A stretch of DNA of 64,000 bases from an uncultured Planctomycetota bacterium (lineage in GTDB: Bacteria; Planctomycetota; SKW154; DAOVDS01). Under the pieces are notes generated by a model. The model made no database searches. It saw nothing but the letters and a program-made list of their open reading frames with translations, and had not been told where the DNA came from. The stretch is from the NCBI GenBank assembly GCA_964641955.1, contig CAZXNM010000010.1, positions 65 through 64,064 on the forward strand, in the 5' to 3' direction. Positions 22,079 to 41,600 of the stretch are shown here, one piece after another. Position 1 is the stretch's first letter, and each line of letters starts with the position of its first letter. A program made the position numbers and the translations under genes.

Positions 22079-23656
22079 CTAACCCAGAATCTTCTCCACT
22101 TCTTCCCTGTCGAGGTCGCTCACCATCGGTATACCGCTGATTTTCGACGCCTCGGGCGTCAGGGCCGCGAGGTCGTCGCGTGAGATGTGCTCGAGTGCGA
22201 ACTTGCGCGAGCCGCACATGAGCTGGCGCATGCCTTGCGCAAGCCGCTCGTAATAAGTGTAGACACCCAGCGCGGCGGTCGGGATATCCTTGTAGTCGGC
22301 GCCGAACTCGCGCTTGAGGTGTTCGGCGGTGACGAAGATGGATTCCCTGTCCCTGCCGAAGCGCTCGAGGAATATGGGGAGCTGTCCGCTGTCGAGCGCC
22401 TTGCCGATAGTCTTGCCGACCATTGCGGCCGCGAGCGGAGCCCTGGCCATGCCGATTGCCTTGACGTACGGCGCGCCGAGGGCGAAGCACTTGAATATCT
22501 GGTCTTCGAGCACAATGCCGCTGGCGAAGACAATATCGGGCACGTACTCGCCCTTCGCGGCGAGCCTTTCGCAGTACTGGCGCGTGAGCGACCAGAGTTC
22601 GATGGGCGGCACGCCCCACTCGTTCATCATGCGCCACGGGCTCATGCCCGTGCCGCCGCCGGCCGCATCGACCGTCAGGTAGTCTATCTTGCCGAGGGAC
22701 GAGAACTTGACGGCGCGGGCGAGGTCGGCGGGCCTGTAGGCGCCCGTCTTGAGCGTGATGTACTTCGCGCCCGCGTTGCGGAGTTCCTCGACGCGGGCGA
22801 GGAAGCTCTCCTCGGTGACCATGCCTACGCGCGAGTGGCGCTCGAACTCGGTGAATACGCCTTTCTTGAACTCCTCGACGACGTTCGGGTCGAGCGGGTC
22901 GGGCAGTACGACGTAGCCGCGCTTCTTGAGAAGCTGGGCCTTTTCGAGGTTCTTTATCTTTACCTCGCCGCCTATGTCCTTGGCGCCCTGGCCCCACTTG
23001 AGCTCGACGGTGCGAATGCCGAGCTTCTCCAGAGCGTATTCCTGCGCGCCCAGCCGCGTGTCCTCGATGTTCGCCTGCAGGATTATCTCGCCGAAGCCGT
23101 CGCGCTGCCACTTCTGGAAGAGCTTGATGCGCCACTCGAGGTCGGGCGAATGCTGGACGCGACCGTTCTCGATTTTCGACTCGACATCCATGCCGCAGAC
23201 GTTCTCGCCTATCGTGAGCGCTCCTCCCGCAAGAGCGGAGCCGACCGCGAGGCCGTCCCAGTTTATCTTCGCGACGTTAGTGGAACCCAGACCCGGAATG
23301 ATAATGGGGAGACGCAGCTTGATGCCCTTGTCGTGCCCGAGCCTCGCCTCGAGGTTCACATTCGGGAAAATGGCCTTGTCCGAATCGGCCTCGATTCCGA
23401 TTGCTCCGACCGCCGTCCCCATTACGTTGAAGTGCGACAGGTCAACCGGGTAGTCCTTCTGCGAGGCGGTCGTGATAATGCCGAACGGCTGCGGGTAGAT
23501 GACCTCGTGGCCGCGGTAGGCGCTCTTGCCTATCTCGCACATGCCTATGCAGCCATCGACGCAGGTGACGCACATGCCGCTGCCCGGCGACCAGTCACCG
23601 CCCGTCCTGTTCTTCGTCAGCGTTGCCGCCGTCGCGTTGTACCTTGTCAACGTCAT
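22079..23656 (-). CDS. Standalone glutamate-synthase central-domain (FMN/Fe-S, Glu_synthase-family) protein, paralog 1; last gene of the sigma54-controlled operon
   Basis: N-terminal 4-Cys cluster (CVTCVDGCIGMCEIG), then the FMN-binding GltB domain-2 core (MSPWRMMNEWGVP, GG(T)GxSP-like motifs). AAGGAG lies 7 nt before the ATG at 23656. No amidotransferase or GXGXG domains. Confidence 0.8.
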   Translation of the reverse strand: MTLTRYNATAATLTKNRTGGDWSPGSGMCVTCVDGCIGMCEIGKSAYRGHEVIYPQPFGIITTASQKDYPVDLSHFNVMGTAVGAIGIEADSDKAIFPNVNLEARLGHDKGIKLRLPIIIPGLGSTNVAKINWDGLAVGSALAGGALTIGENVCGMDVESKIENGRVQHSPDLEWRIKLFQKWQRDGFGEIILQANIEDTRLGAQEYALEKLGIRTVELKWGQGAKDIGGEVKIKNLEKAQLLKKRGYVVLPDPLDPNVVEEFKKGVFTEFERHSRVGMVTEESFLARVEELRNAGAKYITLKTGAYRPADLARAVKFSSLGKIDYLTVDAAGGGTGMSPWRMMNEWGVPPIELWSLTRQYCERLAAKGEYVPDIVFASGIVLEDQIFKCFALGAPYVKAIGMARAPLAAAMVGKTIGKALDSGQLPIFLERFGRDRESIFVTAEHLKREFGADYKDIPTAALGVYTYYERLAQGMRQLMCGSRKFALEHISRDDLAALTPEASKISGIPMVSDLDREEVEKILG

Positions 23657-23716
23657 GCCCTGACTCCTTTCAAACCTTGCTAGCTATCCTTTGCCTTGAT
23701 TTCTCCTGGTCCCACT

Positions 23717-24382
23717 TTAATAGACTTTGTGGCCCGCGGCTCCCACGCTTTCCGAGCATCCTATGCATATTGGGCACGTCTCTACGGGTTCAAGATTTTG
23801 ACACCCGCCGCAGAGGCCATTGCTGAGACGGCCCGCAAGGCAGGCATTCTCACAAGCGGGGCATACCCACTCGCAGCCCCCGCAGTTGCGGCACTCCTCC
23901 GGCGTCACACCGAATGCAGTAGCCACCCTGCGCTGGTTACCGCGGCCCACAAAGCCTATTCCACCTGATTGCATCTGTTCCTTGCAATACCTGACACAGA
24001 GGCCGCAGAGGATGCAGCCCTTGTCCTTGATTTTGAAGCGTATCTCATTCAGCCCCATGTTAGAGGCCATGTCCTGAAGCGTCTTGGAGTTGGGGCATGA
24101 TGCAATGAGAAGCTCCAATATGACCTTCCGGGCCTTCTTTACGCGCTCTGTGCTCGTCAGAATCACCTGGCCCTGCGCCACCGGCAGGGTGCAGGAGGTC
24201 TCGAGCTTCGATTTCTTGCCCCTCACCACCTCCACAAGGCACATCCTGCACGCGCCGTACGTGCTCAGGCCCGGGTCGTAGCAGAGAGTGGGAATGATTA
24301 TCCCCATCTGCCTTGCAGCTTCGAGGACGGTGGTCCCTTCCTCGGCTCTTACGGGCATCCCGTCGATAGTAAGCTCAACCAT
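23717..24382 (-). CDS. NuoG-N-terminal/HndD-like ferredoxin ([2Fe-2S] plus two [4Fe-4S] motifs)
   Basis: MVELTIDGMPVRAEEGTTVLEAARQMGIIIPTLCY...CRMCLVEV is the 2Fe-2S region. CILCGLCVRYC and CRNCGGCEWVCP are the 4Fe-4S motifs. 221 aa. Confidence 0.7.
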   Translation of the reverse strand: MVELTIDGMPVRAEEGTTVLEAARQMGIIIPTLCYDPGLSTYGACRMCLVEVVRGKKSKLETSCTLPVAQGQVILTSTERVKKARKVILELLIASCPNSKTLQDMASNMGLNEIRFKIKDKGCILCGLCVRYCKEQMQSGGIGFVGRGNQRRVATAFGVTPEECRNCGGCEWVCPACENACLAGRLSNGLCGGCQNLEPVETCPICIGCSESVGAAGHKVY

Positions 24383-24398
24383 GTCAGCTCCATCCCGG

Positions 24399-26258
24399 TT
24401 AAGTTACGATAATAGCCTCGAACTTGCAGCTGTCGCGGCACAGGCCGCATCTTATGCACTTATCCGAATCGATGCTGTGCGGCTTCTTCTTTTCTCCCAA
24501 TATCGCCTCCTGGGGGCACGCCTTCGCGCACCTGCCGCATCCCGTGCATTTCTCCTCGTCAATGGAGAATGTGATAAGCGCCTTGCACGCGCCAGCCGGG
24601 CATCTTTTGTCCCTGATGTGGGCCTCGTACTCGTCGCGGAAGTAGCGAATCGTAGAGAGGACAGGATTCGGTGCCGTCCCGCCCAGAGCGCACAACGCCG
24701 CATCCTTGATGACGCCTCCGAGTTCCTCGAGCAGCTCGATGTCGCCTTCCTTCCCGCGGCCCTCGGTTATATCGGTGAGGATGTCGAGAATCCTATCGAG
24801 GCCCTCGCGGCAGGGAACGCACTTGCCGCAGGACTCTTCGGTCAGGAATTTCGTAAAGTAGCGGGCGAGGTCCACCATGCAGGTGGTCTCGTCCATAACA
24901 ATCATGCCGCCGGAGCCCATCATGGACCCGACCTTCGTAAGCTCGTCGAAGTCCACCGGCGAGTCTATAAGGCTCTCGGGAATGCATCCGCCGGATGGGC
25001 CTCCGGTCTGGACCGCCTTGAACTTCCTCCCGCCCGGGATTCCTCCGCCAATCTCGTATATTATTTCCCGCAGGGTGATGCCCATGGGCACTTCCACGAG
25101 GCCCGTGTTGTTAATCTTTCCCACGAGCGAGAATATCTTGGTGCCCTTGCTGCCCTCGGTGCCAATGCTCGAATACCAGTCGGCCCCCTTGCCGATTATC
25201 AGCGGTATGTTCGCCCAGGTCTCGACGTTGTTGAGGTTGGTTGGCCTGTTGTGCAGGCCGCTGACCACGGTGTGTATGTGTTTCGGCCTGGGCTCGCCAA
25301 TCTTGCCCTCGAGCGAGGCCATGAGCGCAGTTGACTCGCCGCAGACGAACGCGCCGCCGCCGCGCGAGACCTTGATGTCGAAGTTGAACTTCGAGCCCAG
25401 TATCTTCTTTCCCAGCAGCCCGTACTTCTTCGCCTGCTTGAGCGCCTTCTCCAGGTTTTCGACCGCGAGGGGATACTCGTGCCTGACGTAGACGTATCCC
25501 TCGCTGCTGCCTATCGCGTACGCACCTATAATCATGCCCTCGATGACGCTGTGGGGGTTGCCTTCGAGCAGGCTGCGGTCCATGTATGCGCCCGGGTCGC
25601 CCTCGTCCGCATTGCAGATTACGTAGCGGATGCCGTCGTGGGCAGGCGCGTTTCGCGCCGTCTCCCATTTCCTTCCGGTCGGAAATCCGCCGCCCCCGCG
25701 TCCGCGAAGCCCCGACTTCTTCACTTCCTCGATCACTTCCTCGGGCTTCATCTCGAAGAGGACCTTCGACAGCGCGGAATACCCGCCGATTGCCATGTAA
25801 TCTTCAATGCTGGTGGGGTCGATAAAACCGTTGCTGCCGAATACGAGCCTTTTCTGCTTCGCGTAGAATGGCACTTCTTCTTCGAGCTTGATTTTTTCCT
25901 TCGAGACTGGATCCCTGTACAGTAACCTCTCCACAATCCTGCCGTTCGCGAGCGTCTCTGTCACTATCTCGGGCATGTCATTCGGCTCGACCCGCTCGTA
26001 CATTATCTTTTCCGGATGTACCACGACAAGCGGACCGCGCTCGCAGAACCCGTGGCAGCCGGTGAGTTTCATCTCGATGCTGCCGTCGAGTCCCTGCTTC
26101 TTGATTTCCTTCTTGAGCCTGTTCGCGACCTTGACGCAGCCGTAAGCGCGGCATCCCGTGCCGCCGCAGACCGTGACAAGCCTCTTCTGCCTGCCTTTGT
26201 CGCCCTGGAGTCCCGCCCTGAATTCTTCCAGCTCAGTCGCCGACCGCAACTTTTTCAT
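24399..26258 (-). CDS. NuoF/HndC-like NAD(P)H-binding flavoprotein (51-kDa-subunit homolog) with extra ferredoxin domains
   Basis: NAD(H)/FMN motifs (GRGGGGFPTGRKWE, CNADEGDPGA), the SLBB region, the 4Fe-4S motif CGKCVPCREG, and C-terminal 2x[4Fe-4S] (CTGCGRCAKACP, CIRCGLCRDSC). 619 aa. Confidence 0.85.
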   Translation of the reverse strand: MKKLRSATELEEFRAGLQGDKGRQKRLVTVCGGTGCRAYGCVKVANRLKKEIKKQGLDGSIEMKLTGCHGFCERGPLVVVHPEKIMYERVEPNDMPEIVTETLANGRIVERLLYRDPVSKEKIKLEEEVPFYAKQKRLVFGSNGFIDPTSIEDYMAIGGYSALSKVLFEMKPEEVIEEVKKSGLRGRGGGGFPTGRKWETARNAPAHDGIRYVICNADEGDPGAYMDRSLLEGNPHSVIEGMIIGAYAIGSSEGYVYVRHEYPLAVENLEKALKQAKKYGLLGKKILGSKFNFDIKVSRGGGAFVCGESTALMASLEGKIGEPRPKHIHTVVSGLHNRPTNLNNVETWANIPLIIGKGADWYSSIGTEGSKGTKIFSLVGKINNTGLVEVPMGITLREIIYEIGGGIPGGRKFKAVQTGGPSGGCIPESLIDSPVDFDELTKVGSMMGSGGMIVMDETTCMVDLARYFTKFLTEESCGKCVPCREGLDRILDILTDITEGRGKEGDIELLEELGGVIKDAALCALGGTAPNPVLSTIRYFRDEYEAHIRDKRCPAGACKALITFSIDEEKCTGCGRCAKACPQEAILGEKKKPHSIDSDKCIRCGLCRDSCKFEAIIVT

Positions 26259-26748
26259 GCTTCTCGCCCTTCGGTGCTTTCCTGTATTTCTTGAGAATAT
26301 CCTTAACCTTCCCAGGAGTCATCTGGCCGTGGTATGTGCCATCTACGACCACGATGGGGCCGAGCGCACACGCACCGAGGCAGTTGACCGTCTCGAGCGT
26401 AAATTTCATGTCCCCGGACGTCTCGCCGGCCTTGATGCCCAACTCGCGCTGCAGCTCGTCGAGAACAGCCGGCGCTCCGCGAACGTGGCAGGCCGTCCCG
26501 AGGCAGACGCTGACAAGGTGTTCTCCCCTGGGCTTCAGGCTGAACGCCCGGAAGAACGTAGCGACCCCGTAGACCTGGATGTGGGGCAGGTTCAAGCTGT
26601 CGGCAACGCGCCTGAGAGCCTCTTCGGGCAGGTAATGATATTCGGATTGAATATCCTGCAGAATGGAGATAAGCGAGTCGCGGTTCCTGCCGTTTCTGTC
26701 GATTATCTTATCCACCCTTCGGGCAATACCCTCTACTCTCCGTATCAT
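26233..26748 (-). CDS. NuoE/HndA-like thioredoxin-fold [2Fe-2S] protein (24-kDa-subunit homolog)
   Basis: The four Cys of the NuoE cluster are present (CLGTACHVRG...CLGACALGP). Overlaps the nuoF-like start by 26 nt. Confidence 0.8.
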   Translation of the reverse strand: MIRRVEGIARRVDKIIDRNGRNRDSLISILQDIQSEYHYLPEEALRRVADSLNLPHIQVYGVATFFRAFSLKPRGEHLVSVCLGTACHVRGAPAVLDELQRELGIKAGETSGDMKFTLETVNCLGACALGPIVVVDGTYHGQMTPGKVKDILKKYRKAPKGEKHEKVAVGD

Positions 26749-26751
26749 TGT

Positions 26752-27060
26752 CTATGACCTTCCTTCGCTGAGTTTTCTGGCATAGCTTAGGTAGTGCCTG
26801 AGCAGCCACATCTTCTCCATATACTCGCTCCAGCCACACTCGGGCTTGAAGCCCTTTTCCGCCCTCGGAAGCACCATGCATCCTTCGGTCACGCAGCCTT
26901 TCATCTCTTCCCACATGTCAGACCAGACCTTCAGCGCATCCCGCAAAACAGAGGCGGTGACATTCCTGAGATGTCTGAGCTTCTTTTCGGGCGTGCAGAG
27001 TTCTGACAGGAGTTCGCCGTCTTTGCCAACGCCTATCGGTACGTCAAACTTCCCGCGCAT
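26752..27060 (-). CDS. Small conserved hypothetical protein (102 aa), paralog of the upstream gene
   Basis: ATG at 27060 with GAGGAGG at spacing 8; the ORF track extends to 27138. The C-terminal half (ALKVWSDMWEEMKG...LRHYLSYARKLSEG) matches the upstream paralog (ALEIWMEISRACN...LGHYLDYTRRLCDG). Stop lies 3 nt before the nuoE-like start. Confidence 0.45.
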   Translation of the reverse strand: MRGKFDVPIGVGKDGELLSELCTPEKKLRHLRNVTASVLRDALKVWSDMWEEMKGCVTEGCMVLPRAEKGFKPECGWSEYMEKMWLLRHYLSYARKLSEGRS

Positions 27061-27436
27061 CCGTTGTTCCTCCTCTTTTTTCTCGAGCGGCAATTGAGCC
27101 GTCACAGAGCCTTCGTGTATAATCGAGGTAATGCCCAAGCAGGTCGAGCTTCCTCCTCAAATCATCCCAGCCATGCAAAGGAAGCCGACTGGCGGGTTGT
27201 TCATCACCCTCAAGAATTTGCTCAACAGAGCGCACGTCATTACAGGCTCTGGAAATCTCCATCCAGATCTCAAGAGCCTTATTGATGATTGTGGCAGAGA
27301 TTCCCATGAAGTGCCTCATCTGGGCATTTACGCGTTCCATTTCTTTACGGAGATGCTCGTCATGACTGCTCACTGGAGAATCATGCGCATCCTTCAGGTT
27401 GTTACTTCTTCTTACCACCAGAAATAATCCTCTCAC
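27044..27436 (-). CDS. Small conserved hypothetical protein, first gene of the sigma54-controlled operon (start uncertain)
   Basis: GTG at 27436. Internal ATGs at 27340 and at 27307 (the latter with GAGG at spacing 6) are alternative starts. Paralogous to the 26752..27060 product. Confidence 0.4.
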   Translation of the reverse strand: MRGLFLVVRRSNNLKDAHDSPVSSHDEHLRKEMERVNAQMRHFMGISATIINKALEIWMEISRACNDVRSVEQILEGDEQPASRLPLHGWDDLRRKLDLLGHYLDYTRRLCDGSIAAREKRGGTTDAREV

Positions 27437-27693
27437 TTCAGATAATCACTGCCTCTCGCAGGTCCGGGATTTCAACTTCACTGCTGTTGAGGTTTATCTT
27501 CCGAATTGTTTCGTTCCTTCTCCGACAGCGTCGCGGACGGCTTCACCTGCGTATCTTCTTCAAACTCATCGCACTCAAGCACCCAGCCTTCAGGCTTTAT
27601 GTATGTACATGTTCCTCTCTTCTTGCAGCGTTCACAAATGCCCCGGGTCACAGGCAGTTACCTTCTAAAAATTCACAGAAACAGCGCCGAATT

Positions 27694-27712
27694 AAGCAAC
27701 CTGCGTGCCACT
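27694..27712 (-). promoter_or_regulatory. Sigma54 (-24/-12) promoter: minus-strand TGGCACG-cagg-TTGCT driving the operon below
   Basis: Minus-strand read of 27712..27696 is TGGCACGCAGGTTGCTT, matching the consensus TGGCACG-N4-TTGCW with GG-N10-GC spacing exact. Predicted start site near 27684, about 250 nt upstream of the first operon gene and next to an NtrC-family activator gene. Confidence 0.6.
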
Positions 27713-27737
27713 TGTGGTTAACTAAAGGAGTTGAATC

Positions 27738-27923
27738 GCAACCTCTTGCCATAAAAGGACTTGAGGTTGCACAAAGCCTTTGCCTGTCGGAGAAAGCGGG
27801 ACGACCTCTGCTGCTAGTGCAACAGCAATGCTGTCTTGCGCTGCACTAAGGCATCTAACATATTGTCAGACAAGGGCTTATGGATGTGTGCAAGGATTGA
27901 ACACTACTGATGGATTTCCATCA
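27738..27923. promoter_or_regulatory. Three palindromes upstream of the sigma54 promoter (candidate enhancer/UAS sites)
   Basis: GCAACCTC-N17-GAGGTTGC at 27738-27770, TAGTGCA-N20-TGCACTA at 27815-27848, and TGATGGA-tt-TCCATCA at 27908-27923, all 25-215 bp upstream of the -24 element. Confidence 0.4.
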
Positions 27924-27931
27924 CGCATCAG

Positions 27932-29374
27932 CTATTCGGGGCTGCTGGTCACGATACCGTATTTCTTGATTCTGTGCCGCAGAGTGTTTCTGCTGACACC
28001 CAGCATTCTGGCGGCTTTGACCTGGTTGTTGCCGCATTCCCCGAGAGACCTTCTGACAAGCATTTCTTCAACCAAGTCTATGAGATTCGCATGTATCCCC
28101 TGACTGGAAATCTGGAGTACGTCGGATATCGCATCTTCAATTCTGGCTTTGACGTTAGCGAGGAGTTTCTCTTGGATTCCAGTGCGAGAAATGTCTTTCT
28201 CGTCTTCAAGTTCTATATGCTCATCAGCAACAACATCGCTCTTGCAGATTAGAATCGCCCGCTTTATACAGTTCTCAAGCTCCCTTACGTTGCCCGGCCA
28301 TGAGTACGACTGGAGCTTTCTTATCGCCGTATCGGCAACGAATCGCACCGGTTTGTCGAGTTCCTTGCCGAAACGTCCGACAAAGTAATCTACAAGAGCA
28401 GGGATGTCTTCCAGGCGTCTCCGTAGAGGAGGAAGGTCGATGGAGATCACCTTGAGGCGCCAGTACAAGTCTTCTCTGAACTTCCCTTCCTCGACCTCCT
28501 TTTCCAGATTCTTGTTAGTGGCCGCTATCATGCGCACGTTTATCTTGACAGTCTCCGAACCTCCAAGCCTTTCAAACTCTCCTTCCTGCAGTACTCTCAA
28601 CACCTTGGACTGAGTGGATAGCGACATATCTCCTATCTCATCGAAGAACAGCGTGCCGTTGTTGCATCTCTCAAACTTGCCGATGAAACTGCGATCGGCA
28701 CCGGTAAAAGCACCGCGCTCGTATCCAAACAGCTCACTTTCAAAGAGGTTGTCGGGTATAGCCGCGCAGTTTATCGCTAAAAAGGGCTTGTCTTTCCTGT
28801 GACTGTGGTGGTATATCGCCCTCGCGACAAGCTCCTTTCCCGTCCCGCTCTCCCCTGTTATCAGGACACTAACGTCCTTACCCGCGACCTGTCCAATGAG
28901 CTTGAATACTTCCTGCATTCTCTGGTGGCTGCCGACAATCTTGACGACGCCCTTGCCCGCCGGAGAGACCTTACTCACGTCGTGAGGGAAGCTAACAACC
29001 TCTTTCATTAAACGGTTCACTTCGAGTGCATCTGCAGCTATCCTTTTAAGCTGCTCCATGTCGAAAGGCTTGAGCAGGTAATCGTACGCACCCAGCTTCA
29101 TAGCTTCGATGGCGGTTTCCGTCGTTCCGTATGCAGTCATAATTATCACGGGCGTCTTGAGTTGCGCTTTCCTGATTTCCTTGAGCGTCTCAAGCCCGCT
29201 CAATCCCGGCATCTTGTAGTCAAGCAAGACCAAGTCGAATTGTTCCTCCGACAATCGCTTGAGCGCTGAGGTGCCGTCGGTGCATGTGCTCACATTATAT
29301 TTCTGCTTCGTGAACAGCCGCTTCAGGAAATGCAGCAGACTCTCATCATTGTCAACCAGCAGTATCTTATCCAT
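27932..29374 (-). CDS. Sigma54-dependent response regulator (NtrC/Fis family; receiver, AAA+ and HTH domains)
   Basis: From the ATG: MDKILLVDNDESLL...D54-like LLDYKMPG, a sigma54-interaction domain (GESGTGKELVARAIH, GAFTGA, ESELFGYERGAFTGA) and a C-terminal Fis-type HTH (VKAARMLGVSRNTLRHRIKKYGI). The ORF track begins at an upstream TTG (29464). Confidence 0.85.
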   Translation of the reverse strand: MDKILLVDNDESLLHFLKRLFTKQKYNVSTCTDGTSALKRLSEEQFDLVLLDYKMPGLSGLETLKEIRKAQLKTPVIIMTAYGTTETAIEAMKLGAYDYLLKPFDMEQLKRIAADALEVNRLMKEVVSFPHDVSKVSPAGKGVVKIVGSHQRMQEVFKLIGQVAGKDVSVLITGESGTGKELVARAIYHHSHRKDKPFLAINCAAIPDNLFESELFGYERGAFTGADRSFIGKFERCNNGTLFFDEIGDMSLSTQSKVLRVLQEGEFERLGGSETVKINVRMIAATNKNLEKEVEEGKFREDLYWRLKVISIDLPPLRRRLEDIPALVDYFVGRFGKELDKPVRFVADTAIRKLQSYSWPGNVRELENCIKRAILICKSDVVADEHIELEDEKDISRTGIQEKLLANVKARIEDAISDVLQISSQGIHANLIDLVEEMLVRRSLGECGNNQVKAARMLGVSRNTLRHRIKKYGIVTSSPE

Positions 29375-29429: not shown

Positions 29430-31274
29430 CTAGTCGCCTCGCTCGTGTACCACGGGAAGAACAATCGAGAAACTCGACCCCTTTCCCTGTTTACTCTCTA
29501 CATGGATTTCTCCTCCATGCGCCCGTATGGTGGTTTGGGCAATTGAGAGTCCCAGCCCCGTTCCCGACGCCTTTGTAGTGAAGAACGGGTCAAACAATTT
29601 CAGGATGGATTCTGATTCTATCCCAGGGCCCGTATCACCCACCTCGATTCGCACACAATTTTGCAACCTGCCATCAAGCTCCTCGCGGCCAGAAGTCGCC
29701 CTTATGGTCAAGACGCCCTTCACGGTCATGGCCTCAAGTGCATTCACCAGAAGATTCAGGAGAGCTTCGCCGAGTTGCTTCTTGTCACCTCTTATATCCG
29801 GGAGGCCATTGGCGATGTCCTTTCTGACGATGGTCTCCTGCTGGTAGGCTTTCGGCTGGACGACGAGAAATGAGTCATCAATCAGCTGCGCGATATTCAC
29901 GGTCGAGAAGACAGGTTCCTGGGGTTTGGCGAAATCGAGGAACCGGTTTATCGTCGCCTCTATCCGCTTTACCTGCAACATGGCAAGCTCGAAATCCTTT
30001 GTGTATTCTGGCGAGATTTCTATCTCGCTTTTCACCGACTGCAGAAAGAGCTTCAATGACGAAAGCGGCGTTCTTATCTCATGCGTGACACCGGCTGCCA
30101 GCTGCCCAAGTGCGGCAAGCCGCTGCGACCTGGCTGCCGCTTCCTCGGTTCTGCGCAGCTTCACGTCGGTTTCTTTCAATTCCGTCTGTGTTGACTCTAC
30201 TTTTTCCTCGAGGCTGTTGTGTTTGGCCTGAAGCTGACTCGCCATGTTGCCAAACGCAGTGTAGAGAACGCCTATCTCGTCGCCGCGGTCCGTCTTCAAC
30301 TGCGTACCCGTAAAATCGCCTCTCGCCAACATGTCCGCCGCGCTGCTCAGTCGTTCTACTGGCCTGGCGATGTAGTACCCGAGGAGCCAAGCAACTGCGA
30401 TGGCGGCGAGGATTGACAGGATAAATACTGTAAGCACGTAGCGCTTCAGTCGATCCGAGCTTTCAAATGCTTCATCCCTGTCCTGCTCGACCACGAGATG
30501 CCAATCCGTGCCAGAAACACCACGTGTTGCTCCAAGAACTTCGATACCCCTGTAGTCCGTGTAGGCACTCTTCCGGTTTCTCTTGCCAAAGATGTTCTTG
30601 AAGCTCCCCGACTGGGCTATGCTCTCAGAAAGAATCCGTTGGGGCTCCTTGTGCGCAAGGAAGGTTCCCTCCTTGTCCACAAGATAGCATTCGCCTGTCC
30701 GGCCAAGAGAAACCTTGAGCACTATGGAAGAAATCGCCTCCGTGCCCACCACTTCGCAGATAACACCACGGATTGCGCCTTTCTCGCCGTATATCGGCGC
30801 TGAAATCCGAAAGACAGATTCGTTCCAGTGCGGCTCGATACTGATTTCGGACAGATACAGCTCGCCAGCCCGGGCCCGTTTGAACCATTCCTCGCCTGAA
30901 TGGTCTCCCTTTTCCGGGGAGTTATTGAAAAGAGTGTCCCCATCCTTGTTGACAATCATAAATCCCCTGTAAACCCCGTATTCTTTCCCGACAAGCTCGA
31001 TATACGGGCGCATCAGGGACGGGTCCATCGCTTTCACCACAGACGAACCGGCTATTACCCGAGCATCCGCCTTGCGTTCCAAGAGCCACCTTTCAACCAG
31101 GTCCCTCTTGTCGTTGGCAACATTTTCCAGGCGGCTGGTTACCATGTTCGTGATAAGCTCATCCGCAGTGTGCACTGAGAAGACACTTACTACTCCCAAA
31201 GGCACGATTGATACTATCATGAAGAGTAGCATTACTCTGACGTGAAGCCTGTTGAGGAATCCGACAGCTGCCAA
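29430..31274 (-). CDS. Sensor histidine kinase (extracytoplasmic Cache/PDC-like sensor, HAMP, HisKA, HATPase_c)
   Basis: N-terminal transmembrane helix, a sensor domain of about 250 aa, a second helix, HAMP, an H-box (LAAGVTHEIRTPLSSL), and N/G1/G2 boxes (LLNLLVNALEAM, DTGPGI, GTGLGLSI). Its 3' end overlaps the regulator gene. Confidence 0.8.
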   Translation of the reverse strand: MAAVGFLNRLHVRVMLLFMIVSIVPLGVVSVFSVHTADELITNMVTSRLENVANDKRDLVERWLLERKADARVIAGSSVVKAMDPSLMRPYIELVGKEYGVYRGFMIVNKDGDTLFNNSPEKGDHSGEEWFKRARAGELYLSEISIEPHWNESVFRISAPIYGEKGAIRGVICEVVGTEAISSIVLKVSLGRTGECYLVDKEGTFLAHKEPQRILSESIAQSGSFKNIFGKRNRKSAYTDYRGIEVLGATRGVSGTDWHLVVEQDRDEAFESSDRLKRYVLTVFILSILAAIAVAWLLGYYIARPVERLSSAADMLARGDFTGTQLKTDRGDEIGVLYTAFGNMASQLQAKHNSLEEKVESTQTELKETDVKLRRTEEAAARSQRLAALGQLAAGVTHEIRTPLSSLKLFLQSVKSEIEISPEYTKDFELAMLQVKRIEATINRFLDFAKPQEPVFSTVNIAQLIDDSFLVVQPKAYQQETIVRKDIANGLPDIRGDKKQLGEALLNLLVNALEAMTVKGVLTIRATSGREELDGRLQNCVRIEVGDTGPGIESESILKLFDPFFTTKASGTGLGLSIAQTTIRAHGGEIHVESKQGKGSSFSIVLPVVHERGD

Positions 31275-31420: not shown

Positions 31421-33010
31421 TCACGAATTTAGGATTTCTTCCGCCTGAGACCTATAAGCATCCATGACGTATGGAATGCCCGTAATATCGGTGCATTCCC
31501 TCGAAAGGCTCATGAGGTCATCGCGGGAAATCTTGTCGAGAGTGAAGTGCCGGGCTCCAGCCATCAGCTGCTGAAGTCCGACCGACATCTTCTGGGCGTA
31601 CGAGTATATTCCAATCGCGCCCAGCGGTATGTTCTTCATCTCGTCCTTGCCGACTATGTCTGCCACTTCCTCCCAGCAGACGAAAAGCTCTTCCGGCTTC
31701 GCGCCGTAGCCTTCAAGTGACTTGGGCAGATTGTTGTCCTTGATCCACTCGGCTGCGTTCTTGCCGACCATACCGGGTATCATAAGCGCGCGTCCCATGC
31801 AGATTGCCTTCACGTAAGGAGCGCCAAGCGCGATAGCCTTGAAGGCATGGTCTTCTGCGCTGAATCCGCCTGCAAACGCCAGGTCGGGAACCCTCTCGCC
31901 ATTCTTGGTCAGCTTATCGGCAAACTGGACTGCCGCAGCGTGCAGGTGCAGAGTCGGCACGCCCCACTCGTTCATCATGCGCCACGGGCTCATGCCGGTA
32001 CCGCCACCAGCGCCGTCTATCGTGAGAAGGTCAACTTCGCCCTTGCTGCCCCATTTGAGGGCCATGGCGAGTTCGCGAAGACCGTAGGCCCCAGTCTTGA
32101 GAGTGATTCTCTCGAATCCGATCTTACGCAAACGGTCACATTCCGCGAGGAACGACTCCTCGCTTATGAAGCCCAGCCTGCTGTGACGCTCGAATTCCTT
32201 TATCGCTCCGTCCTTGAATGCGGCCTGAACGACAGGATCCTCGGGGTCGGGTGTCACGATGTAGCCCCGGCCCTTCAACTGCAGTGCTCTTTCCAGTGAG
32301 CCTATCTTTATCTCGCCGCCGATGCATTTCGCGCCCTGGCCCCACTTGAGTTCTATCGTGTTCAGGCCGTGCTTCTCGTGAACGTACTCCCCAACACCAA
32401 GCCGGGTGTCTTCTACGTTCATCTGAACGAGAATCTCACCGTAACCTCTGTGGTAGCGCTTGTAGACCTCCATGCGGCGGTCCATGTCGGGCGCTTTGAC
32501 GACCTTGCCGTTCTTGAGCTCAAGCTTGGGGTCAATACCGCAGACATTCTCGCCACATACGATGGTGCATCCGGCCAGTGCCGCGCCGATTGCGAAGTGC
32601 TCCCAGTTCGCCCGTGCTATTTCCGTTGAACCCAGCGCACCTGTAAAGAACGGGGCGAGCATCTTGACTTTCTTCTCCCAGCCGTACTCGGTTTCAACAC
32701 TTACAGCGGGAAAAGTACATGTGTCAGGGTTTGCATCTACGCCCTCAGGGAGCCCATCGCCGCCAAGTGCGTAACCCTGGATGTTAAGGTGCGTGTAGTC
32801 AACGGGATAGTCCTTGTCGGCACCTGCGGTTACCTTGCCGAACGGTCCCGGGTAGATAAGTTCCCTGCCCCGGAAAGTTGCCAGCCAGACTTCGCAAGTA
32901 CCGCGACAACCATCAACGCACCGTGAACATAAACCTGAAAGCGGCGCCACGCTCCGCGACCTGTTTGAGGTCTTGGTGGCATCATCTGCATTTGGCCTCT
33001 GCAGCGTCAT
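31421..33010 (-). CDS. Standalone glutamate-synthase central-domain (FMN/Fe-S) protein, paralog 2
   Basis: Colinear with the 22079..23656 product (CSRCVDGCRGTCEV ... MSPWRMMNEWGVP ... same C-terminal region) at about 40% identity. AAGGAAGG RBS. Confidence 0.8.
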   Translation of the reverse strand: MTLQRPNADDATKTSNRSRSVAPLSGLCSRCVDGCRGTCEVWLATFRGRELIYPGPFGKVTAGADKDYPVDYTHLNIQGYALGGDGLPEGVDANPDTCTFPAVSVETEYGWEKKVKMLAPFFTGALGSTEIARANWEHFAIGAALAGCTIVCGENVCGIDPKLELKNGKVVKAPDMDRRMEVYKRYHRGYGEILVQMNVEDTRLGVGEYVHEKHGLNTIELKWGQGAKCIGGEIKIGSLERALQLKGRGYIVTPDPEDPVVQAAFKDGAIKEFERHSRLGFISEESFLAECDRLRKIGFERITLKTGAYGLRELAMALKWGSKGEVDLLTIDGAGGGTGMSPWRMMNEWGVPTLHLHAAAVQFADKLTKNGERVPDLAFAGGFSAEDHAFKAIALGAPYVKAICMGRALMIPGMVGKNAAEWIKDNNLPKSLEGYGAKPEELFVCWEEVADIVGKDEMKNIPLGAIGIYSYAQKMSVGLQQLMAGARHFTLDKISRDDLMSLSRECTDITGIPYVMDAYRSQAEEILNS

Positions 33011-33507
33011 CTCGACCTTCCTTTCTCTATAAAACCCTGTCTAAACCGAATCCCAAACACGTGTGCCTATTTTCACCCCCTTCTTGCTATCGGTCTGAAG
33101 ACTCGTTCGAAAAGACCAATGACAGCCAACCTTGTCTATGCAAACCCCGAATCACCGGGGACAGCAACATACTGGCGAGGCAGATGTGTCCGGACTGGAT
33201 TTCGTGACGAAGCAGGGCGGGTGGGTTGTGCAAAACCTCTTCTGCGGCAACCATACAGCGCGTTTCTGGCAAAATATAACCTCCTGGCCCTTTGCTTGTC
33301 ATGCTCCCACTCCTTTTGCATGCATGACACGGCCGAGGAGGTACCTTGGTAACCACCAAATCTTGCCAAAAGCAGCCCAAGTCATAGTATGACTTGAGCT
33401 GCATTCAGCCCTGAGGAGGGCAGTCCCCCCACGGGTAGCACAGCCGTTGCTGTCTCAGCTGCTGGTGGTTCCTCGGCACCTCAAAACCCTTAATTAACCC
33501 GGTTGTC

Positions 33508-34629
33508 TTACAGATTGTGCTTGCGGAACCCCATGGCCGCCTTCACCCTCTCCTTGGCCATGTTGATTGCCGCGTCCCTGGGCAGGTCGCCGCCCTTGAC
33601 CCTGTCGAGAAGTTCCTTCACGTTCTGCTCGATTCTGAATTTGATGAACGGGAAGACCTCGTTTTCGCTCTTGTCGTGATACTCAAGGGCACCACAGATG
33701 ACTCCGCCGGCATTGGCGATGAAGTCCGGTATGACCAGGACGCCCCTTTTGTGAAGCTCGGCCTCCGCCTCGACTGTCGCGGGAATGTTTGCGCCCTGAA
33801 CAATCAGCCTGGCCTTGACGCCCGCGACGTTGTCCATGGTGATGCAGTCCGGCCTTGCTGAAGGATAGAGAATGTCGCACTCGGCCGTGACGACATCCTC
33901 TTTCTTCGAGAGCTTCTCGGCTTTCTTGTAATCCGTGACCTTGCCGGTCTTGGCCTTGACCTTGACGAGTTCATCGACGTCGATGCCGTCGGGGTTGTAG
34001 ATGGCGCCCTTGCTGTCGCTGGCGCCGACGAGAATCGCGCCCCTCTCGTCCATGAATTGCGCCGTGGGCCGGCCCACGTTGCCGAACCCCTCGATGACGT
34101 ACTTGGAGCCTTTGATGTCTATCTTCGCCGTCGGGGCGGCCACTTCGGTCGCAATTACGCAGCCGTACGCGGTCGCGCCGATTTCATCAAGCGGAATGCC
34201 GCCGAGGCTCCTCGGCAGGCCGACGCAGCGCCCTATCTCGTCGAAGACGTACGCCATGCTGCCTTCGTCGGTGCCCATGTCCGGGCCGGGGATGTACTCG
34301 GTGACGTTGCGAATCATCCGGGCGAAGGTGCGAATCAGTTCTTCGCGCTTCTCCTCGGGCTGGGTCGGGTCGGCGATAATGCCGGATTTCCCGCCGCCGT
34401 GCTTCAGGCCAGCCGCAGCGTTCTTAAAGGTCATGCCCCTGGCGAGCCTGAAAACCTCGGTTGTCGTGACATCGGGCACCATCCTGACGCCGCCTATCGC
34501 GGGGCCCCTCGCCACGTTGTCAACGCATACTATAGCTCTCAGCCCCACTTTCGGCTCATAGAGATGCATTACTCTCATGGGACCAATATCATCCTGCAGA
34601 TTTTCGCAGATGAAATCGCAAGGTTCCAT
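33508..34629 (-). CDS. Glu/Leu/Phe/Val-family amino-acid dehydrogenase (glutamate dehydrogenase-like)
   Basis: A GGxK active-site region (KHGGGKSGI) and an NAD(P) Rossmann motif (GFGNVG), 373 aa. GGAGGTG RBS 5 nt before the ATG at 34629. Confidence 0.85.
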   Translation of the reverse strand: MEPCDFICENLQDDIGPMRVMHLYEPKVGLRAIVCVDNVARGPAIGGVRMVPDVTTTEVFRLARGMTFKNAAAGLKHGGGKSGIIADPTQPEEKREELIRTFARMIRNVTEYIPGPDMGTDEGSMAYVFDEIGRCVGLPRSLGGIPLDEIGATAYGCVIATEVAAPTAKIDIKGSKYVIEGFGNVGRPTAQFMDERGAILVGASDSKGAIYNPDGIDVDELVKVKAKTGKVTDYKKAEKLSKKEDVVTAECDILYPSARPDCITMDNVAGVKARLIVQGANIPATVEAEAELHKRGVLVIPDFIANAGGVICGALEYHDKSENEVFPFIKFRIEQNVKELLDRVKGGDLPRDAAINMAKERVKAAMGFRKHNL

Positions 34630-40315: not shown

Positions 40316-40831
40316 ATGGCTGACTCCAAGACTATTTTCATTGTTGGGCCGAGGTTTTCGGGGAAGAGCCGGTTTGTCGAGAATCTCCTGCCGGAGATGC
40401 GCGACAGCGGCCTGAAGCTCACAGGCTTCCTGCAGCGTGGAATCTTCGACGAGGTTGGCGTGAAGGTCGGATATGACCTTGTAAGCGTTGAAGATGGGTC
40501 TACCATCCCTCTTGCCCGGCGTGCCGCGCCGGACAGCCTGTGGGAGTTCCGCAACGAAGCGTTCGATAAAGCCGCCGGACTCGTGCGTGAAGACGCCGAT
40601 GTCTGCATCCTCGATGAAATCGGCCCGCTCGAACTCTCGGGCGGCGGACACGCCGAGACTATGCGCCGGGCGCTTTCGACAGGTGCCGCAGTGATTATCG
40701 TGGTGCGCGAAGAACTCGAAGAGCATCTTCTCAAGCTCATCCCGGACACGCGGGACGTTCACGTCGTACACTTCTCGCCGGGAACCGAAGATGAGTCAAG
40801 TCGGCGGATTCTCTCTCTTCTTCTGGCTTGA
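40316..40831 (+). CDS. THEP1/DUF2478-like P-loop NTPase
   Basis: Walker A variant IFIVGPRFSGKS and the Walker B/THEP1 motif ILDEIGPLEL. 171 aa. Confidence 0.55.
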   Translation: MADSKTIFIVGPRFSGKSRFVENLLPEMRDSGLKLTGFLQRGIFDEVGVKVGYDLVSVEDGSTIPLARRAAPDSLWEFRNEAFDKAAGLVREDADVCILDEIGPLELSGGGHAETMRRALSTGAAVIIVVREELEEHLLKLIPDTRDVHVVHFSPGTEDESSRRILSLLLA

Positions 40832-40889: not shown

Positions 40890-41600
40890 ATGAGGAAACT
40901 TGCCCTGATTTCTGTTGTACTTGTGCTTTCGACTGCGGTGCTGGGATGCTCGAAGAGGGAATTTTATTCCGACGCTTCGGACCGCTACTACTCTGCAATG
41001 CTCGGGCCAGTCGCGGACTGCGAGTATCCGGTGCTGACCTTCAGGATGCCGGACGGCTCGCTCAAAGAGCTTGACATAAACGGCATTCCGACGCGCAGCT
41101 TCTGGGGCGCGCAGCTTATATGCCAGTCCTGTAACGACCCGGCAAACTGGAAAGTCCTGAGGCGGCAGGGCGTCAGCCTCGCTGTGATTTTCGAAGCCGC
41201 CGGAATCGACCTCCCTGATTCGACGCCCGTTAACTTCATTGGTCGCGACGGCTGGGACCCGTGGCGTACGGTGCTGGGCTGCAACCCCGACAAGCTCATG
41301 ACCTTCGGCTACCTGCGTGAGAACACTTACATCTACGTCGGCAGCCCGGGCTTGAAAGACCCGTCGCTTCCGGTTGACGCTCCCGGCAACTACGCCAAGG
41401 ACCCGCTCTACCCCGCGATGGAGGGGAAGAGTCTCTGCCTCGGCTTCGATTTCGAGACAGTAGAGGGCGCCCAGGCGGAAGCTTACATCTGGGGCATGGA
41501 ATGTCCCGCGGAAGGGTGCTTCGGGCAATACCGATACAGCATGCTCGAGAAATACTCCGGGTCGATGCGCGGCATTATCGAGATTGACCCGCAGCCGTAG
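40890..41600 (+). CDS. Hypothetical Cys-rich lipoprotein
   Basis: ATG at 40890 with AAGGAG at spacing 6. MRKLALISVVLVLSTAVLGC lipobox. Confidence 0.45.
   Translation: MRKLALISVVLVLSTAVLGCSKREFYSDASDRYYSAMLGPVADCEYPVLTFRMPDGSLKELDINGIPTRSFWGAQLICQSCNDPANWKVLRRQGVSLAVIFEAAGIDLPDSTPVNFIGRDGWDPWRTVLGCNPDKLMTFGYLRENTYIYVGSPGLKDPSLPVDAPGNYAKDPLYPAMEGKSLCLGFDFETVEGAQAEAYIWGMECPAEGCFGQYRYSMLEKYSGSMRGIIEIDPQP

What the first reader, a model, noticed from the sequence alone, without database searches (positions are those of the whole stretch)
27694..27930. Near-perfect sigma54 promoter with three upstream palindromes next to a sigma54-dependent activator gene
The minus strand reads TGGCACGCAGGTTGCTT, matching TGGCACG-N4-TTGCW with GG-N10-GC spacing exact. 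It lies about 250 nt upstream of the operon. Three palindromes sit 25-215 bp further upstream: GCAACCTC-N17-GAGGTTGC, TAGTGCA-N20-TGCACTA and TGATGGA-tt-TCCATCA. These are where enhancer-binding-protein sites are expected. The adjacent genes encode a receiver-AAA+-HTH regulator carrying GAFTGA and a Cache/HAMP histidine kinase. This looks like a complete sensory circuit for the operon. The roughly 250-nt leader could also hold an RNA-level control element.
Basis: partly seen in the sequence, partly recalled or inferred. Interest (0 to 1): 0.6.

Follow-up and report, generated by a model that had tools for sequence, protein, structure and literature searches.

The report
Conserved sigma-54 promoter with upstream enhancer
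This is a genuine sigma-54 promoter and activator-binding region, placed just after its own sensor-kinase and activator genes and conserved with fixed spacing in dozens of uncultured bacteria; it is an ordinary kind of switch, but this version has not been described before.

Summary
The sequence features are real. The -24/-12 element TGGCACGCAGGTTGCT (27710-27695, minus strand) is the only exact consensus match in 64 kb.

Twenty-five orthologous loci from Desulfobacterota and Planctomycetota MAGs keep a -24/-12 element at the same place.

- **M1** is the strongest dyad, TGTTCA-N5-TGAACA (27903-27887). It lies about 196 bp upstream of TGGCAC in every locus.
- **M2a and M2b** are weaker dyads of the form TGNTG-N6-CANCA. 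M2b (27825-27808) overlaps one arm of palindrome 2.
- **An IHF-like block** (27751-27739) overlaps one arm of palindrome 1.

Palindromes 1 and 2 are not conserved as dyads.

The "250-nt leader" is not a leader. A conserved 57-aa four-cysteine ORF starts about 33 nt after the predicted start site. There is no Rfam match and no unusual RNA fold.

The operon encodes this mini-protein, two unnamed small proteins, NuoE-, NuoF- and HoxU-like subunits, and a glutamate-synthase-FMN-domain protein. Sister loci carry glutamate dehydrogenase instead.

Verdict: a new member of a known kind, of modest interest.

The parts
29430..31274 (-). Sensor histidine kinase with dCache_1, HAMP, HisKA and HATPase_c domains
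   Evidence: Pfam. Orthologues of 45-65% identity lie directly upstream of the activator in L001-L031.
27932..29374 (-). NtrC-family sigma-54 activator (REC, AAA+ with GAFTGA, Fis-type HTH). The longest ORF reaches 29464; the likely start is the ATG at 29374.
   Evidence: Pfam and translation. NCBIfam ntrC and AtoC scores are below their cut-offs. The HTH stretch SRNTLRHR is invariant in all orthologues.
27908..27923 (.). Dyad M2a, TGATGGAAATCCATCA (TGNTG-N6-CANCA). It starts 9 nt after the activator stop codon and 20 bp upstream of M1.
   Evidence: The pattern is found at -20 relative to M1 in 17 of 25 loci, against a background of 0.2 per 20-bp bin. Only two places in the 64-kb window match CTGNTG-N6-CANCA (3 matches counting both strands, against 0.43 expected).
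27887..27903 (.). Dyad M1, TGTTCAATCCTTGCACA (consensus TGTTCA-N5-TGAACA, one mismatch). It is the best-conserved element and the most likely primary activator site.
   Evidence: It lies 184-205 bp (median 196.5) upstream of TGGCAC in 25 of 26 loci. In about 0.9 Mb of fetched loci it occurs only after these activator genes.
27856..27868 (-). Weak IHF-like match TGACAATATGTTA between M1 and M2b
   Evidence: A match with at most 2 mismatches to WATCAANNNNTTR lies at M1+35/36 in 5 of 25 loci. Suggestive only.
27808..27825 (.). Dyad M2b, CTGTTGCACTAGCAGCAG.
   Evidence: The pattern is found at +79 to +85 relative to M1 in about 10 of 25 loci. It matches on both strands in the window and is conserved in L081.
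27815..27848 (.). It is present but not conserved as a dyad.
   Evidence: One search confirms it. The left arm is absent in L081 and the other loci.
27738..27770 (.). It is present, but the dyad relation is seen only here and in L012.
27739..27751 (-). IHF-like block TGGCAAGAGGTTG (core CAA-N4-TTG), with a T-rich tract on its 5' side. It lies about -67 to -55 from the predicted start site.
   Evidence: Matches with at most 2 mismatches to WATCAANNNNTTR lie at -39 to -42 from TGGCAC in about 13 of 25 loci, against a background of 0.7 per 10-bp bin.
27695..27710 (-). Sigma-54 -24/-12 element TGGCACGCAGGTTGCT. The predicted start site is near 27684.
   Evidence: exact match, 0.02 expected. Conserved in 25 of 26 loci at a fixed distance from M1.
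27478..27651 (-). 57-aa four-cysteine ORF (GIC-x-RC...C...EC), with a GTG start and GAAGG 9 nt upstream. It is the first gene of the transcript.
   Evidence: Homologues lie at the same position in L081, L008, L030, L098, L106, L118 and L119, plus P0002. Between the window and L081, 10 of the 20 differing codons among the first 32 are synonymous.
27044..27436 (-). Small protein smA, of no known family. Its start is uncertain; conservation begins near 27364.
   Evidence: tblastn hits right after the promoter in most orthologous loci. No Pfam or NCBIfam hit.
26752..27060 (-). Small protein smB, 102 aa, a paralogue of smA with motif CGW.E..EK.WLL.HYL.Y
   Evidence: The AF2 model shows two long helices at pLDDT 70.
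22079..26748 (-). Structural genes: NuoE-like (26748-26233), NuoF-like with extra Fe-S domains (26258-24399), HoxU/NuoG-N-terminal-like (24382-23717), and a GltB FMN-domain protein (23656-22079)
   Evidence: Pfam and NCBIfam. The same gene order follows smB in L005 and L081.

Best explanation
This is the regulatory region of a sigma-54-dependent operon controlled by the two-component system encoded immediately upstream. Inferred mechanism: the dCache kinase senses an external ligand, most likely an amino acid or a related acid given the gene content. It phosphorylates the NtrC-type activator. The activator assembles on an enhancer centred about 210-230 bp upstream of the start site. That enhancer consists of the tandem dyads M2a (27923-27908) and M1 (27903-27887), which start 20 bp apart, probably helped by a third, weaker dyad, M2b (27825-27808). 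A bend at the IHF-like block (27751-27739) brings the activator to RNA polymerase-sigma-54 bound at TGGCAC-N5-TTGC (27710-27695). ATP hydrolysis then opens the promoter, and transcription starts near 27684. The transcript has a short 5' UTR of about 33 nt. It encodes a 57-aa four-cysteine protein, two small helical proteins (smA and smB), NuoE-, NuoF- and HoxU-like electron-transfer subunits, and a glutamate-synthase FMN-domain protein. What is shown: the presence of all the elements, their conservation, their fixed spacing, and their exclusive association with this activator family. What is inferred: who binds which dyad, the IHF role, the ligand, and the start site.
For: The consensus match is exact and unique in the window. 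Twenty-five of 26 orthologous loci have a strong -24/-12 element 184-205 bp after M1 (median 196.5), against 0.06 expected. The M1-to-promoter distance stays fixed even where the distance from the activator stop codon varies from 15 to 207 bp, so the enhancer and the promoter form one unit. In about 0.9 Mb of fetched loci plus the 64-kb window, M1 with at most 1 mismatch occurs almost only just after these activator genes (one extra M1-like match lies inside the same L010 module); among the orthologous loci a promoter always follows on the same strand, never on the other. A metagenome scan by DNA pattern alone gave 40 contigs, and 18 of them carry the same cassette. More distant activator relatives (48-49% identity; L032 and L033) have two tandem M1-like dyads about 20 bp apart, followed by a sigma-54 promoter in front of different genes. 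This ties the dyad to the activator rather than to the target genes. The recognition-helix region of the HTH is invariant in the orthologues. M2 and IHF-like matches are positionally enriched 50- to 90-fold and about 18-fold respectively. The activator has REC, AAA+ with GAFTGA, and HTH_8 domains. No sigma-70-like promoter on the minus strand and no terminator-like site were found in 26700-28100, the stretch running from the end of the activator gene to the start of the NuoE-like gene.
Against: No binding, start-site or rpoN data exist for any of these uncultured organisms. M2 has a half-site spacing one base shorter than M1, and its central base varies, so it may be a weak site or a site for a different protein. 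In the window the IHF-like match has 2 mismatches, and only about half of the loci pass that threshold. rpoN and ihf genes were not looked for and cannot be assessed for the whole genome from one window. The enhancer lies further from the promoter than in most predicted Desulfovibrio cases, where most promoters are within 100 nt of the site (PMC4641369).
Confidence: 0.8

Rival explanations
1. One reading: the three perfect palindromes (27770-27738, 27848-27815, 27923-27908) are the activator sites, and a 250-nt untranslated leader carries an RNA-level control element.
For: The palindromes are real and more numerous than chance allows (P about 0.006). Palindrome 3 coincides with conserved dyad M2a.
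Against: Palindromes 1 and 2 are lost as dyads in the closest relative L081 and in nearly all other loci. The most conserved dyad, M1, is not among the three. The leader holds a conserved coding ORF. It has no Rfam match and a fold z-score of +0.5.
Confidence: 0.08
2. The roles are split. The M2 pair is the activator's enhancer, and M1 is bound by a different transcription factor, such as a repressor or a global regulator that gates the promoter.
For: M1 and M2 differ in half-site spacing and sequence. M2 occurs twice, as enhancer sites often do. M2 half-sites such as TGGTGC/GCACCA resemble NtrC half-sites in swapped order (my own knowledge of the NtrC consensus).
Against: Distant relatives of this activator, with other target genes, carry tandem M1-like dyads and no M2. 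M1 is far better conserved than M2, which matches the invariant HTH. No second regulator gene is conserved in the cassette.
Confidence: 0.15
3. The dyads just after the activator gene are RNA hairpins, meaning a terminator or stabiliser for the 3' end of the activator mRNA, and are not protein-binding sites.
For: M2a starts 9 nt after the stop codon in the window. The variable central base of M2 often changes on both arms together.
Against: There is no T-run and no terminator-like site. In L005, L008 and L009 the dyads lie 130-190 bp after the stop codon but keep their distance to the promoter. The M2a stem in the window would have a 2-nt loop.
Confidence: 0.03
4. The promoter match is a chance occurrence with no function.
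For: Single consensus matches do occur by chance. With one mismatch allowed, 0.64 matches are expected per window.
Against: An exact match has 0.02 expected. The element is conserved at a fixed position in 25 of 26 loci across two phyla.
Confidence: 0.02

Closest known systems
NtrB/NtrC at glnAp2 (E. coli), the textbook sigma-54 enhancer (my own knowledge; Reitzer and Magasanik 1986 is cited within PMC4641369)
   Same: A phosphorylated REC/AAA+/Fis-type-HTH activator. Tandem dyad sites upstream of a TGGCAC-N5-TTGC promoter. The activator acts by DNA looping.
   Different: The activator scores below the curated NtrC cut-off (474.5 against 558.6 bits). The kinase has a periplasmic dCache sensor, whereas NtrB is cytoplasmic. 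The dyads are TGTTCA-N5-TGAACA and TGNTG-N6-CANCA, not TGCACC-N5-GGTGCA. The enhancer is centred at about -210 to -230 rather than -110 to -140.
AtoS/AtoC at atoDAEB and DctB/DctD at dctA (my own knowledge)
   Same: A sensor kinase plus an NtrC-family activator encoded next to the catabolic operon they control. Paired upstream inverted repeats with an IHF-assisted loop. DctB also senses through a double-PDC (dCache-type) periplasmic domain. The kinase core here scores best to AtoS, and the activator's second-best score is to AtoC.
   Different: Both scores are far below the equivalog cut-offs (230 against 646 bits, and 451 against 714 bits). The site sequences and the target genes differ.
Predicted activator regulons of Desulfovibrio vulgaris Hildenborough (Kazakov et al. 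2015, PMC4641369)
   Same: The method and the logic are the same: a conserved sigma-54 promoter plus a palindromic site next to the activator gene. That work includes an activator for an amino-acid dehydrogenase (alanine dehydrogenase, DVU0569).
   Different: A different orthologous group and a different site. There, most promoters lie within 100 nt of the site. Here the main dyad lies a fixed 196 bp or so upstream.
BfuABC-type NAD(H)/ferredoxin enzymes (PMC12018979), as an analogue for the regulated operon
   Same: A NuoE-like protein, a NuoF-like protein with an N-terminal 2Fe-2S domain and C-terminal 2x[4Fe-4S] domains, and a NuoG-N-terminal-like subunit, joined to an extra catalytic subunit.
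   Different: The partner here is a GltB FMN-domain protein, and two unknown small proteins and a four-cysteine mini-protein precede the genes. Bifurcation-specific residues were not checked.

Membership tests
Sigma-54 (-24/-12) promoter | GG and GC doublets exactly 10 nt apart, within TGGCAC-N5-TTGCW | tested here: met
   TGGCACGCAGGTTGCT at 27710-27695. Exact match, 0.02 expected.
Sigma-54 (-24/-12) promoter | Placed upstream of a gene, on the same strand, at a plausible distance | tested here: met
   The conserved 57-aa ORF starts 43 nt after the -12 element. In sister loci the first gene starts 30-90 nt after it.
Sigma-54 (-24/-12) promoter | Conserved in orthologous loci | tested here: met
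   Twenty-five of 26 loci, against 0.06 expected.
Sigma-54 (-24/-12) promoter | Transcription start about 12 nt after the GC, dependent on rpoN | not testable with these tools
   No transcript or genetic data are available, and rpoN lies outside what can be assessed from one window.
Bacterial enhancer-binding protein, NtrC-type response regulator | REC domain, AAA+ sigma-54 interaction domain with a GAFTGA loop, and a C-terminal HTH_8 | tested here: met
   Pfam: PF00072 (3.7e-33), PF00158 (3.4e-72), PF02954 (1.3e-10). GAFTGA appears in the translation.
NtrC proper (TIGR01818) or AtoC (NF008469) | Score above the curated equivalog cut-off | tested here: not met
   474.5 against 558.6 bits, and 450.8 against 714 bits. 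It is an unnamed orthologous group.
Enhancer (UAS) of a sigma-54 activator | Conserved dyad-symmetric sites upstream of the promoter that co-occur with the activator gene | tested here: met
   M1 and M2 show strong positional enrichment and exclusive association.
Enhancer (UAS) of a sigma-54 activator | Direct binding by the activator | not testable with these tools
   Needs EMSA or footprinting.
IHF site | Match to WATCAANNNNTTR with a 5' A/T-rich tract, placed between the enhancer and the promoter | tested here: inconclusive
   The window has 2 mismatches (TGGCAAGAGGTTG). About 13 of 25 loci have at most 2 mismatches at -39 to -42, against 0.7 expected. Binding is not shown.
Cis-regulatory leader RNA (riboswitch or attenuator) | A conserved structured non-coding RNA between the start site and the first gene | tested here: not met
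   No Rfam match at gathering score or at E of 1 or less. Fold z = +0.51. The stretch is coding.

The most novel reading that the evidence does not exclude
The kinase, the activator, the enhancer, the IHF-like block and the promoter form one rigid cassette. Its geometry of about 196 bp (three dyads plus one or two bend sites) has been kept through horizontal transfer between Desulfobacterota and Planctomycetota. The cassette switches on an uncharacterised glutamate-linked module: glutamate dehydrogenase in most loci, or a Bfu-like NuoEF/HoxU/GltB-domain complex in others. In nearly every locus, small proteins of unknown function come first in that module: one or both of two small helical proteins, and in some loci a four-cysteine mini-protein. 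If so, the fixed spacing would be a requirement of the mechanism rather than an accident, and the small proteins would be new subunits or assembly factors of a new amino-acid-oxidising, possibly electron-bifurcating, enzyme.
Probability: 0.25. Interest if true: 0.55.

Novelty: new member of a known kind. Interest (0 to 1): 0.35.

Why it matters
The result gives a ready-made, testable regulatory map for a gene cluster that is widespread in uncultured anaerobes and has no characterised member. The map names the sensor, the activator, the likely operator sequence (TGTTCA-N5-TGAACA), the bend site, the promoter and the start of the transcript. It also corrects the gene model by placing a conserved 57-aa four-cysteine gene where a leader was assumed. 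It links two unnamed small-protein families to glutamate dehydrogenase and to a NuoEF/GltB-type redox complex. The near-invariant spacing of about 196 bp between enhancer and promoter, across two phyla, is a useful natural case for asking how much geometry matters to sigma-54 enhancers. None of this changes how sigma-54 regulation is understood.

Tried and rejected
- **RNA element in the leader:** Rfam at gathering score on the whole window and at E of 1 or less on 27000-28000 found nothing. The fold of 27684-27437 gave z = +0.51. Rejected.
- **Terminator after the activator gene:** none was found.
- **My first M1 pattern:** I used the wrong spacer (N6), which gave noise. N5 corrected it.
- **Palindromes 1 and 2 as conserved dyads:** the alignments did not show this.
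- **Other M1, M2 or strong sigma-54 sites in the window**, for example upstream of the second GltB-like gene or the ELFV dehydrogenase: none of weight were found.
- **A second IHF-like site between M1 and M2b:** only 5 of 25 loci have one. I kept it as a weak lead.
- **Pfam and NCBIfam for the three small proteins:** no family.
- **Structure of smB:** the AF2 model is a two-helix hairpin at pLDDT 70. I judged it too simple for a meaningful fold search, so I ran none.

Full report
**1. The observation**

On the minus strand the window reads TGGCACGCAGGTTGCTT at 27710-27694. This is the only exact match to TGGCACG-N4-TTGCW in 64 kb, against 0.02 expected from shuffles. With one mismatch allowed there are two matches against 0.64 expected.

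- GCAACCTC-N17-GAGGTTGC at 27770-27738
- TAGTGCA-N20-TGCACTA at 27848-27815
- TGATGGA-N2-TCCATCA at 27923-27908

Three such inverted repeats in 225 bp is unusual. Shuffles give a mean of 0.36 (P about 0.006), and only 0.9% of equal-sized windows across the 64 kb reach this number.

The two genes upstream on the same strand match the description. One is a dCache_1/HAMP/HisKA/HATPase_c kinase (31274-29430). The other is a REC/sigma-54-AAA+/HTH_8 activator (29374-27932) carrying GAFTGA.

**2. The neighbourhood**

Downstream of the promoter, on the minus strand, the genes are:
- a 57-aa ORF (27651-27478)
- two paralogous small ORFs without any family, smA (ending at 27044) and smB (27060-26752)
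- a NuoE/HoxE-like 2Fe-2S protein (26748-26233)
- a NuoF-like protein with an extra N-terminal 2Fe-2S domain and C-terminal 2x[4Fe-4S] domains (26258-24399)
- a HoxU/NuoG-N-terminal-like protein (24382-23717)
- a 525-aa protein with the glutamate-synthase FMN domain (23656-22079)

Upstream of the kinase lie a second GltB-domain paralogue (33010-31421) and a Glu/Leu/Phe/Val-type dehydrogenase (34629-33508).

**3. Related loci**

A genome-collection scan with the activator returned 31 loci with 59-72% identity. All are MAGs. They are labelled Syntrophobacteraceae, Desulfobacteraceae, Desulfatiglandaceae, Syntrophales and "Deltaproteobacteria" on one side, and Pirellulales, Thermoguttaceae and Planctomycetaceae on the other.

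Synteny is conserved: kinase, activator, an intergenic region, and then at least one smA/smB-family gene (both in the Desulfobacterota-type loci, a single one in the Planctomycetota-type loci). After these comes either a bona fide glutamate dehydrogenase (most loci; NCBIfam GdhA-type, 608 bits for L002) or the NuoE/NuoF/HoxU/GltB set, as in this window (L005). A still closer locus, L081, reached through an smB homologue, has exactly the window's gene order, including a called 57-aa gene.

**4. The promoter is conserved**

In 25 of 26 loci that have the small-protein genes downstream, a strong -24/-12 element is present. It usually lies 211-240 bp after the activator stop codon. At my scoring threshold the background rate of such sites is 1e-4 per position. 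That gives 0.06 sites expected in the relevant 22-bp window summed over 26 loci.

**5.

I anchored the intergenic regions on the promoter and aligned them. Four blocks stand out.

(a) **M1** has the consensus cTGtTCAA-N3-cTGaACAg, that is TGTTCA-N5-TGAACA. In the window it reads TGTTCAATCCTTGCACA (27903-27887, one mismatch). M1 lies 184-205 bp (median 196.5; 20 of 26 within 193-200) upstream of the T of TGGCAC. This holds even in loci where the distance from the activator stop codon is 68, 153, 161 or 207 bp instead of about 30. The enhancer and the promoter therefore move as one unit.

(b) **M2** has the form (C)TGNTG-N6-CANCA(G). It is found exactly 20 bp upstream of M1 in 17 of 25 loci, and at +79 to +85 in about 10 of 25. 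The background is 0.2 hits per 20-bp bin over 25 loci. In the window these two sites are:
- M2b, CTGTTGCACTAGCAGCAG (27825-27808), which overlaps only the right arm of palindrome 2

They are the only two places in 64 kb that match CTGNTG-N6-CANCA (3 matches counting both strands, against 0.43 expected).

(c) **An IHF-like block** consists of a T-rich tract followed by CAA-N4-TT(A/G). Matches with at most 2 mismatches to WATCAANNNNTTR start at -39 to -42 from TGGCAC in about 13 of 25 loci, against 0.7 expected per 10-bp bin. In the window this is TGGCAAGAGGTTG (27751-27739), which contains most of the right arm of palindrome 1. A second, weaker IHF-like position lies at M1+35/36 in 5 of 25 loci (window TGACAATATGTTA, 27868-27856).

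(d) **The promoter itself.**

In the closest relative, L081, the left arms of palindromes 1 and 2 are replaced by unrelated sequence, while M1, M2a, M2b, the CAA-N4-TTG block and the promoter are all kept. Palindrome 1 recurs as a dyad only in L012.

**6. Link between the dyads and the activator**

Across all 81 fetched loci (about 0.9 Mb) plus the window, M1 with at most one mismatch occurs almost only just after the activator genes of this family; the one extra match lies inside the same module in L010. In the orthologous loci a strong promoter follows 184-205 bp downstream on the same strand and never on the opposite strand.

Two more distant relatives, L032 and L033 (48-49% identity), carry two tandem M1-like dyads about 19-20 bp apart, directly after the activator gene. 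A sigma-54 promoter follows 60-90 bp further on. It sits in front of unrelated genes: a TtrB/DsrO-like 4Fe-4S protein in one case and an amino-acid ABC-transporter binding protein in the other. The dyad therefore travels with the activator and not with the target. M2a sits where those relatives have their second M1-type dyad.

The HTH region (NQV.AA..LGISRNTLRHR) is nearly invariant among the orthologues. This fits the invariance of M1.

As an independent check, I scanned metagenome contigs with a DNA pattern alone: M1, then 165-190 nt, then GGCAC-N5-TTGC. The scan returned 40 contigs. Eighteen of them have smA/smB (with or without GDH, NuoE or the four-cysteine ORF) downstream. Wherever the contig reaches far enough upstream, a related activator (47-71% identity) is present. 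Most of the rest look like chance matches inside coding sequence. A small AT-rich group (L082, L087, L088) has a 36%-identical activator, the same dyad, and a promoter 181 bp downstream.

**7. The "leader"**

With the GC of the -12 element at 27697-27696, the start site is expected near 27684. A GTG at 27651, preceded by GAAGG at a 9-nt spacing, opens a 57-aa ORF. Its N-terminal 30 residues (G-I-C-x-R-C-x5-C-x11-E-C-x2-F/Y-E) are conserved in ORFs at the same position in L081, L008 and L030, and in a metagenome protein, P0002. tblastn also finds it in L098, L106, L118 and L119.

Between the window and L081, the first 32 codons show 12 identical codons, 10 synonymous differences and 10 non-synonymous differences. 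The exact 57-aa sequence is on record as a predicted protein from an NCBI-sourced contig.

The stretch has no Rfam match, even at E of 1 or less. It folds no better than shuffles (z = +0.51). In the Desulfobacterota-type loci that lack this ORF, smA starts 30-90 nt after the -12 element. So the 5' UTR is short, and there is no support for an RNA control element.

**8. Most likely mechanism** (inferred from the anatomy and from established knowledge of NtrC-family activators)

- A ligand binds the periplasmic dCache domain.
- The kinase phosphorylates the receiver domain of the activator.
- The activator oligomerises on the M2a/M1 pair, whose sites start 20 bp apart and so sit on roughly the same face of the helix. 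M2b probably contributes.
- An IHF-like bend at about -60 loops the complex onto the closed RNA polymerase-sigma-54 complex.
- The GAFTGA loop drives opening of the promoter.

The gene content points to an amino-acid-related signal, probably connected to glutamate. That content includes glutamate dehydrogenase in most cassettes, GltB-domain proteins, an ELFV dehydrogenase, and an amino-acid binding protein as the target in L033. This is inference only.

The NuoE-like, NuoF-like (with extra clusters) and HoxU-like proteins, together with a separate catalytic subunit, resemble the BfuCBA-plus-partner layout described for Bfu enzymes (PMC12018979). I did not test bifurcation-specific residues.

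**9. Comparison with what is known**

This works like NtrBC at glnAp2, AtoSC at atoDAEB and DctBD at dctA (my own knowledge). It also resembles the computationally reconstructed activator regulons of Desulfovibrio vulgaris (PMC4641369).

It is not a member of the NtrC or AtoC equivalog families. The scores are 474.5 against 558.6 bits and 450.8 against 714 bits. The kinase core scores 230 bits against 646 for AtoS.

It differs from those systems in four ways: the dyad sequences, the dCache sensor, the enhancer position (centred at about -210 to -230, against mostly within 100 nt in D. vulgaris), and the target genes. I found no paper in the searched library that describes this cassette. Those were only two keyword searches, so this absence is weak evidence.

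**10. Verdict**

The core of the interpretation (a sigma-54 promoter governed by the adjacent two-component system) is strongly supported by comparative evidence. The assignment of the three palindromes is largely wrong in detail. The leader idea is not supported.

This is a new, unnamed member of a well-understood kind of regulatory system. The points of some interest are:
- the near-invariant spacing of about 196 bp between enhancer and promoter, kept across two phyla
- the cassette's apparent horizontal spread
- the three uncharacterised small proteins that head the regulated operon

Noticed in passing
window 27478-27651 (minus strand): A conserved 57-aa four-cysteine mini-protein (GIC-x-RC-x5-C-x11-EC-x2-F/YE) with no Pfam or NCBIfam family. 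It is the first gene after the promoter. Homologues lie at the same position in L081, L008, L030, L098, L106, L118 and L119.
   Followed up: partly
window 26752-27436 (minus strand): Two paralogous proteins of about 100 aa, smA and smB, with C-terminal motif CGW.EF.EK..LL.HYLDY and no known family. At least one of them follows the sigma-54 promoter in nearly every related cassette that extends far enough downstream, ahead of glutamate dehydrogenase or NuoE-like genes. The AF2 model of smB shows two long helices at pLDDT 70.
   Followed up: partly
window 22079-26748 and 31421-34629 (minus strand): A NuoE-like protein, a NuoF-like protein with extra Fe-S domains, a HoxU-like protein and a GltB FMN-domain protein look like a Bfu-type complex with a new partner subunit. 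A second GltB-domain paralogue and an ELFV-type amino-acid dehydrogenase lie upstream of the kinase, without their own M1 dyad or sigma-54 element.
   Followed up: partly
L032:7400-7500 and L033:3225-3335: Activator relatives at 48-49% identity have two tandem TGTTCA-N5-TGAACA-like dyads about 20 bp apart, directly after the gene. A sigma-54 promoter follows 60-90 bp downstream, in front of different targets: a TtrB/DsrO-like Fe-S protein and an amino-acid ABC binding protein.
   Followed up: partly
L082:2368-2564, L087:307-502, L088:4523-4718: AT-rich metagenome contigs with a 36%-identical activator in the two contigs that extend far enough upstream (L082, L088), a single perfect TGTTCA-N5-TGAACA dyad, and TGGCACCATTTTTGCA (TGGCACTATTTTTGCA in L088) 181-182 bp downstream. 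The promoter sits in front of a small Cys-containing secreted-looking protein. The same operator and similar spacing are reused by another activator group.
   Followed up: no
window 27696-27702, 27738-27744, 27764-27770: The heptamer AGGTTGC (GCAACCT on the plus strand) occurs three times: inside the -12 element, inside the IHF-like block, and inverted in the left arm of palindrome 1. In Planctomycetota-type loci the IHF-like block reads CTGGCAA-N4-TTGCGA, which resembles a -24/-12 element with a spacer one base too short.
   Followed up: no
window 40994-41009 (minus strand): A second near-consensus sigma-54 match, TGGCCCGAGCATTGCA (one mismatch). It lies about 245 nt upstream of a minus-strand ORF that starts at 40749 and inside a plus-strand ORF.
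   Followed up: no
L001-L031 (record titles): Orthologous cassettes at 59-72% activator identity occur both in Desulfobacterota and in Planctomycetota MAGs. The window's enhancer sequence resembles the Planctomycetota type in places (GGTTGCGATTC). This suggests horizontal transfer of the whole cassette, cis elements included.
   Followed up: no
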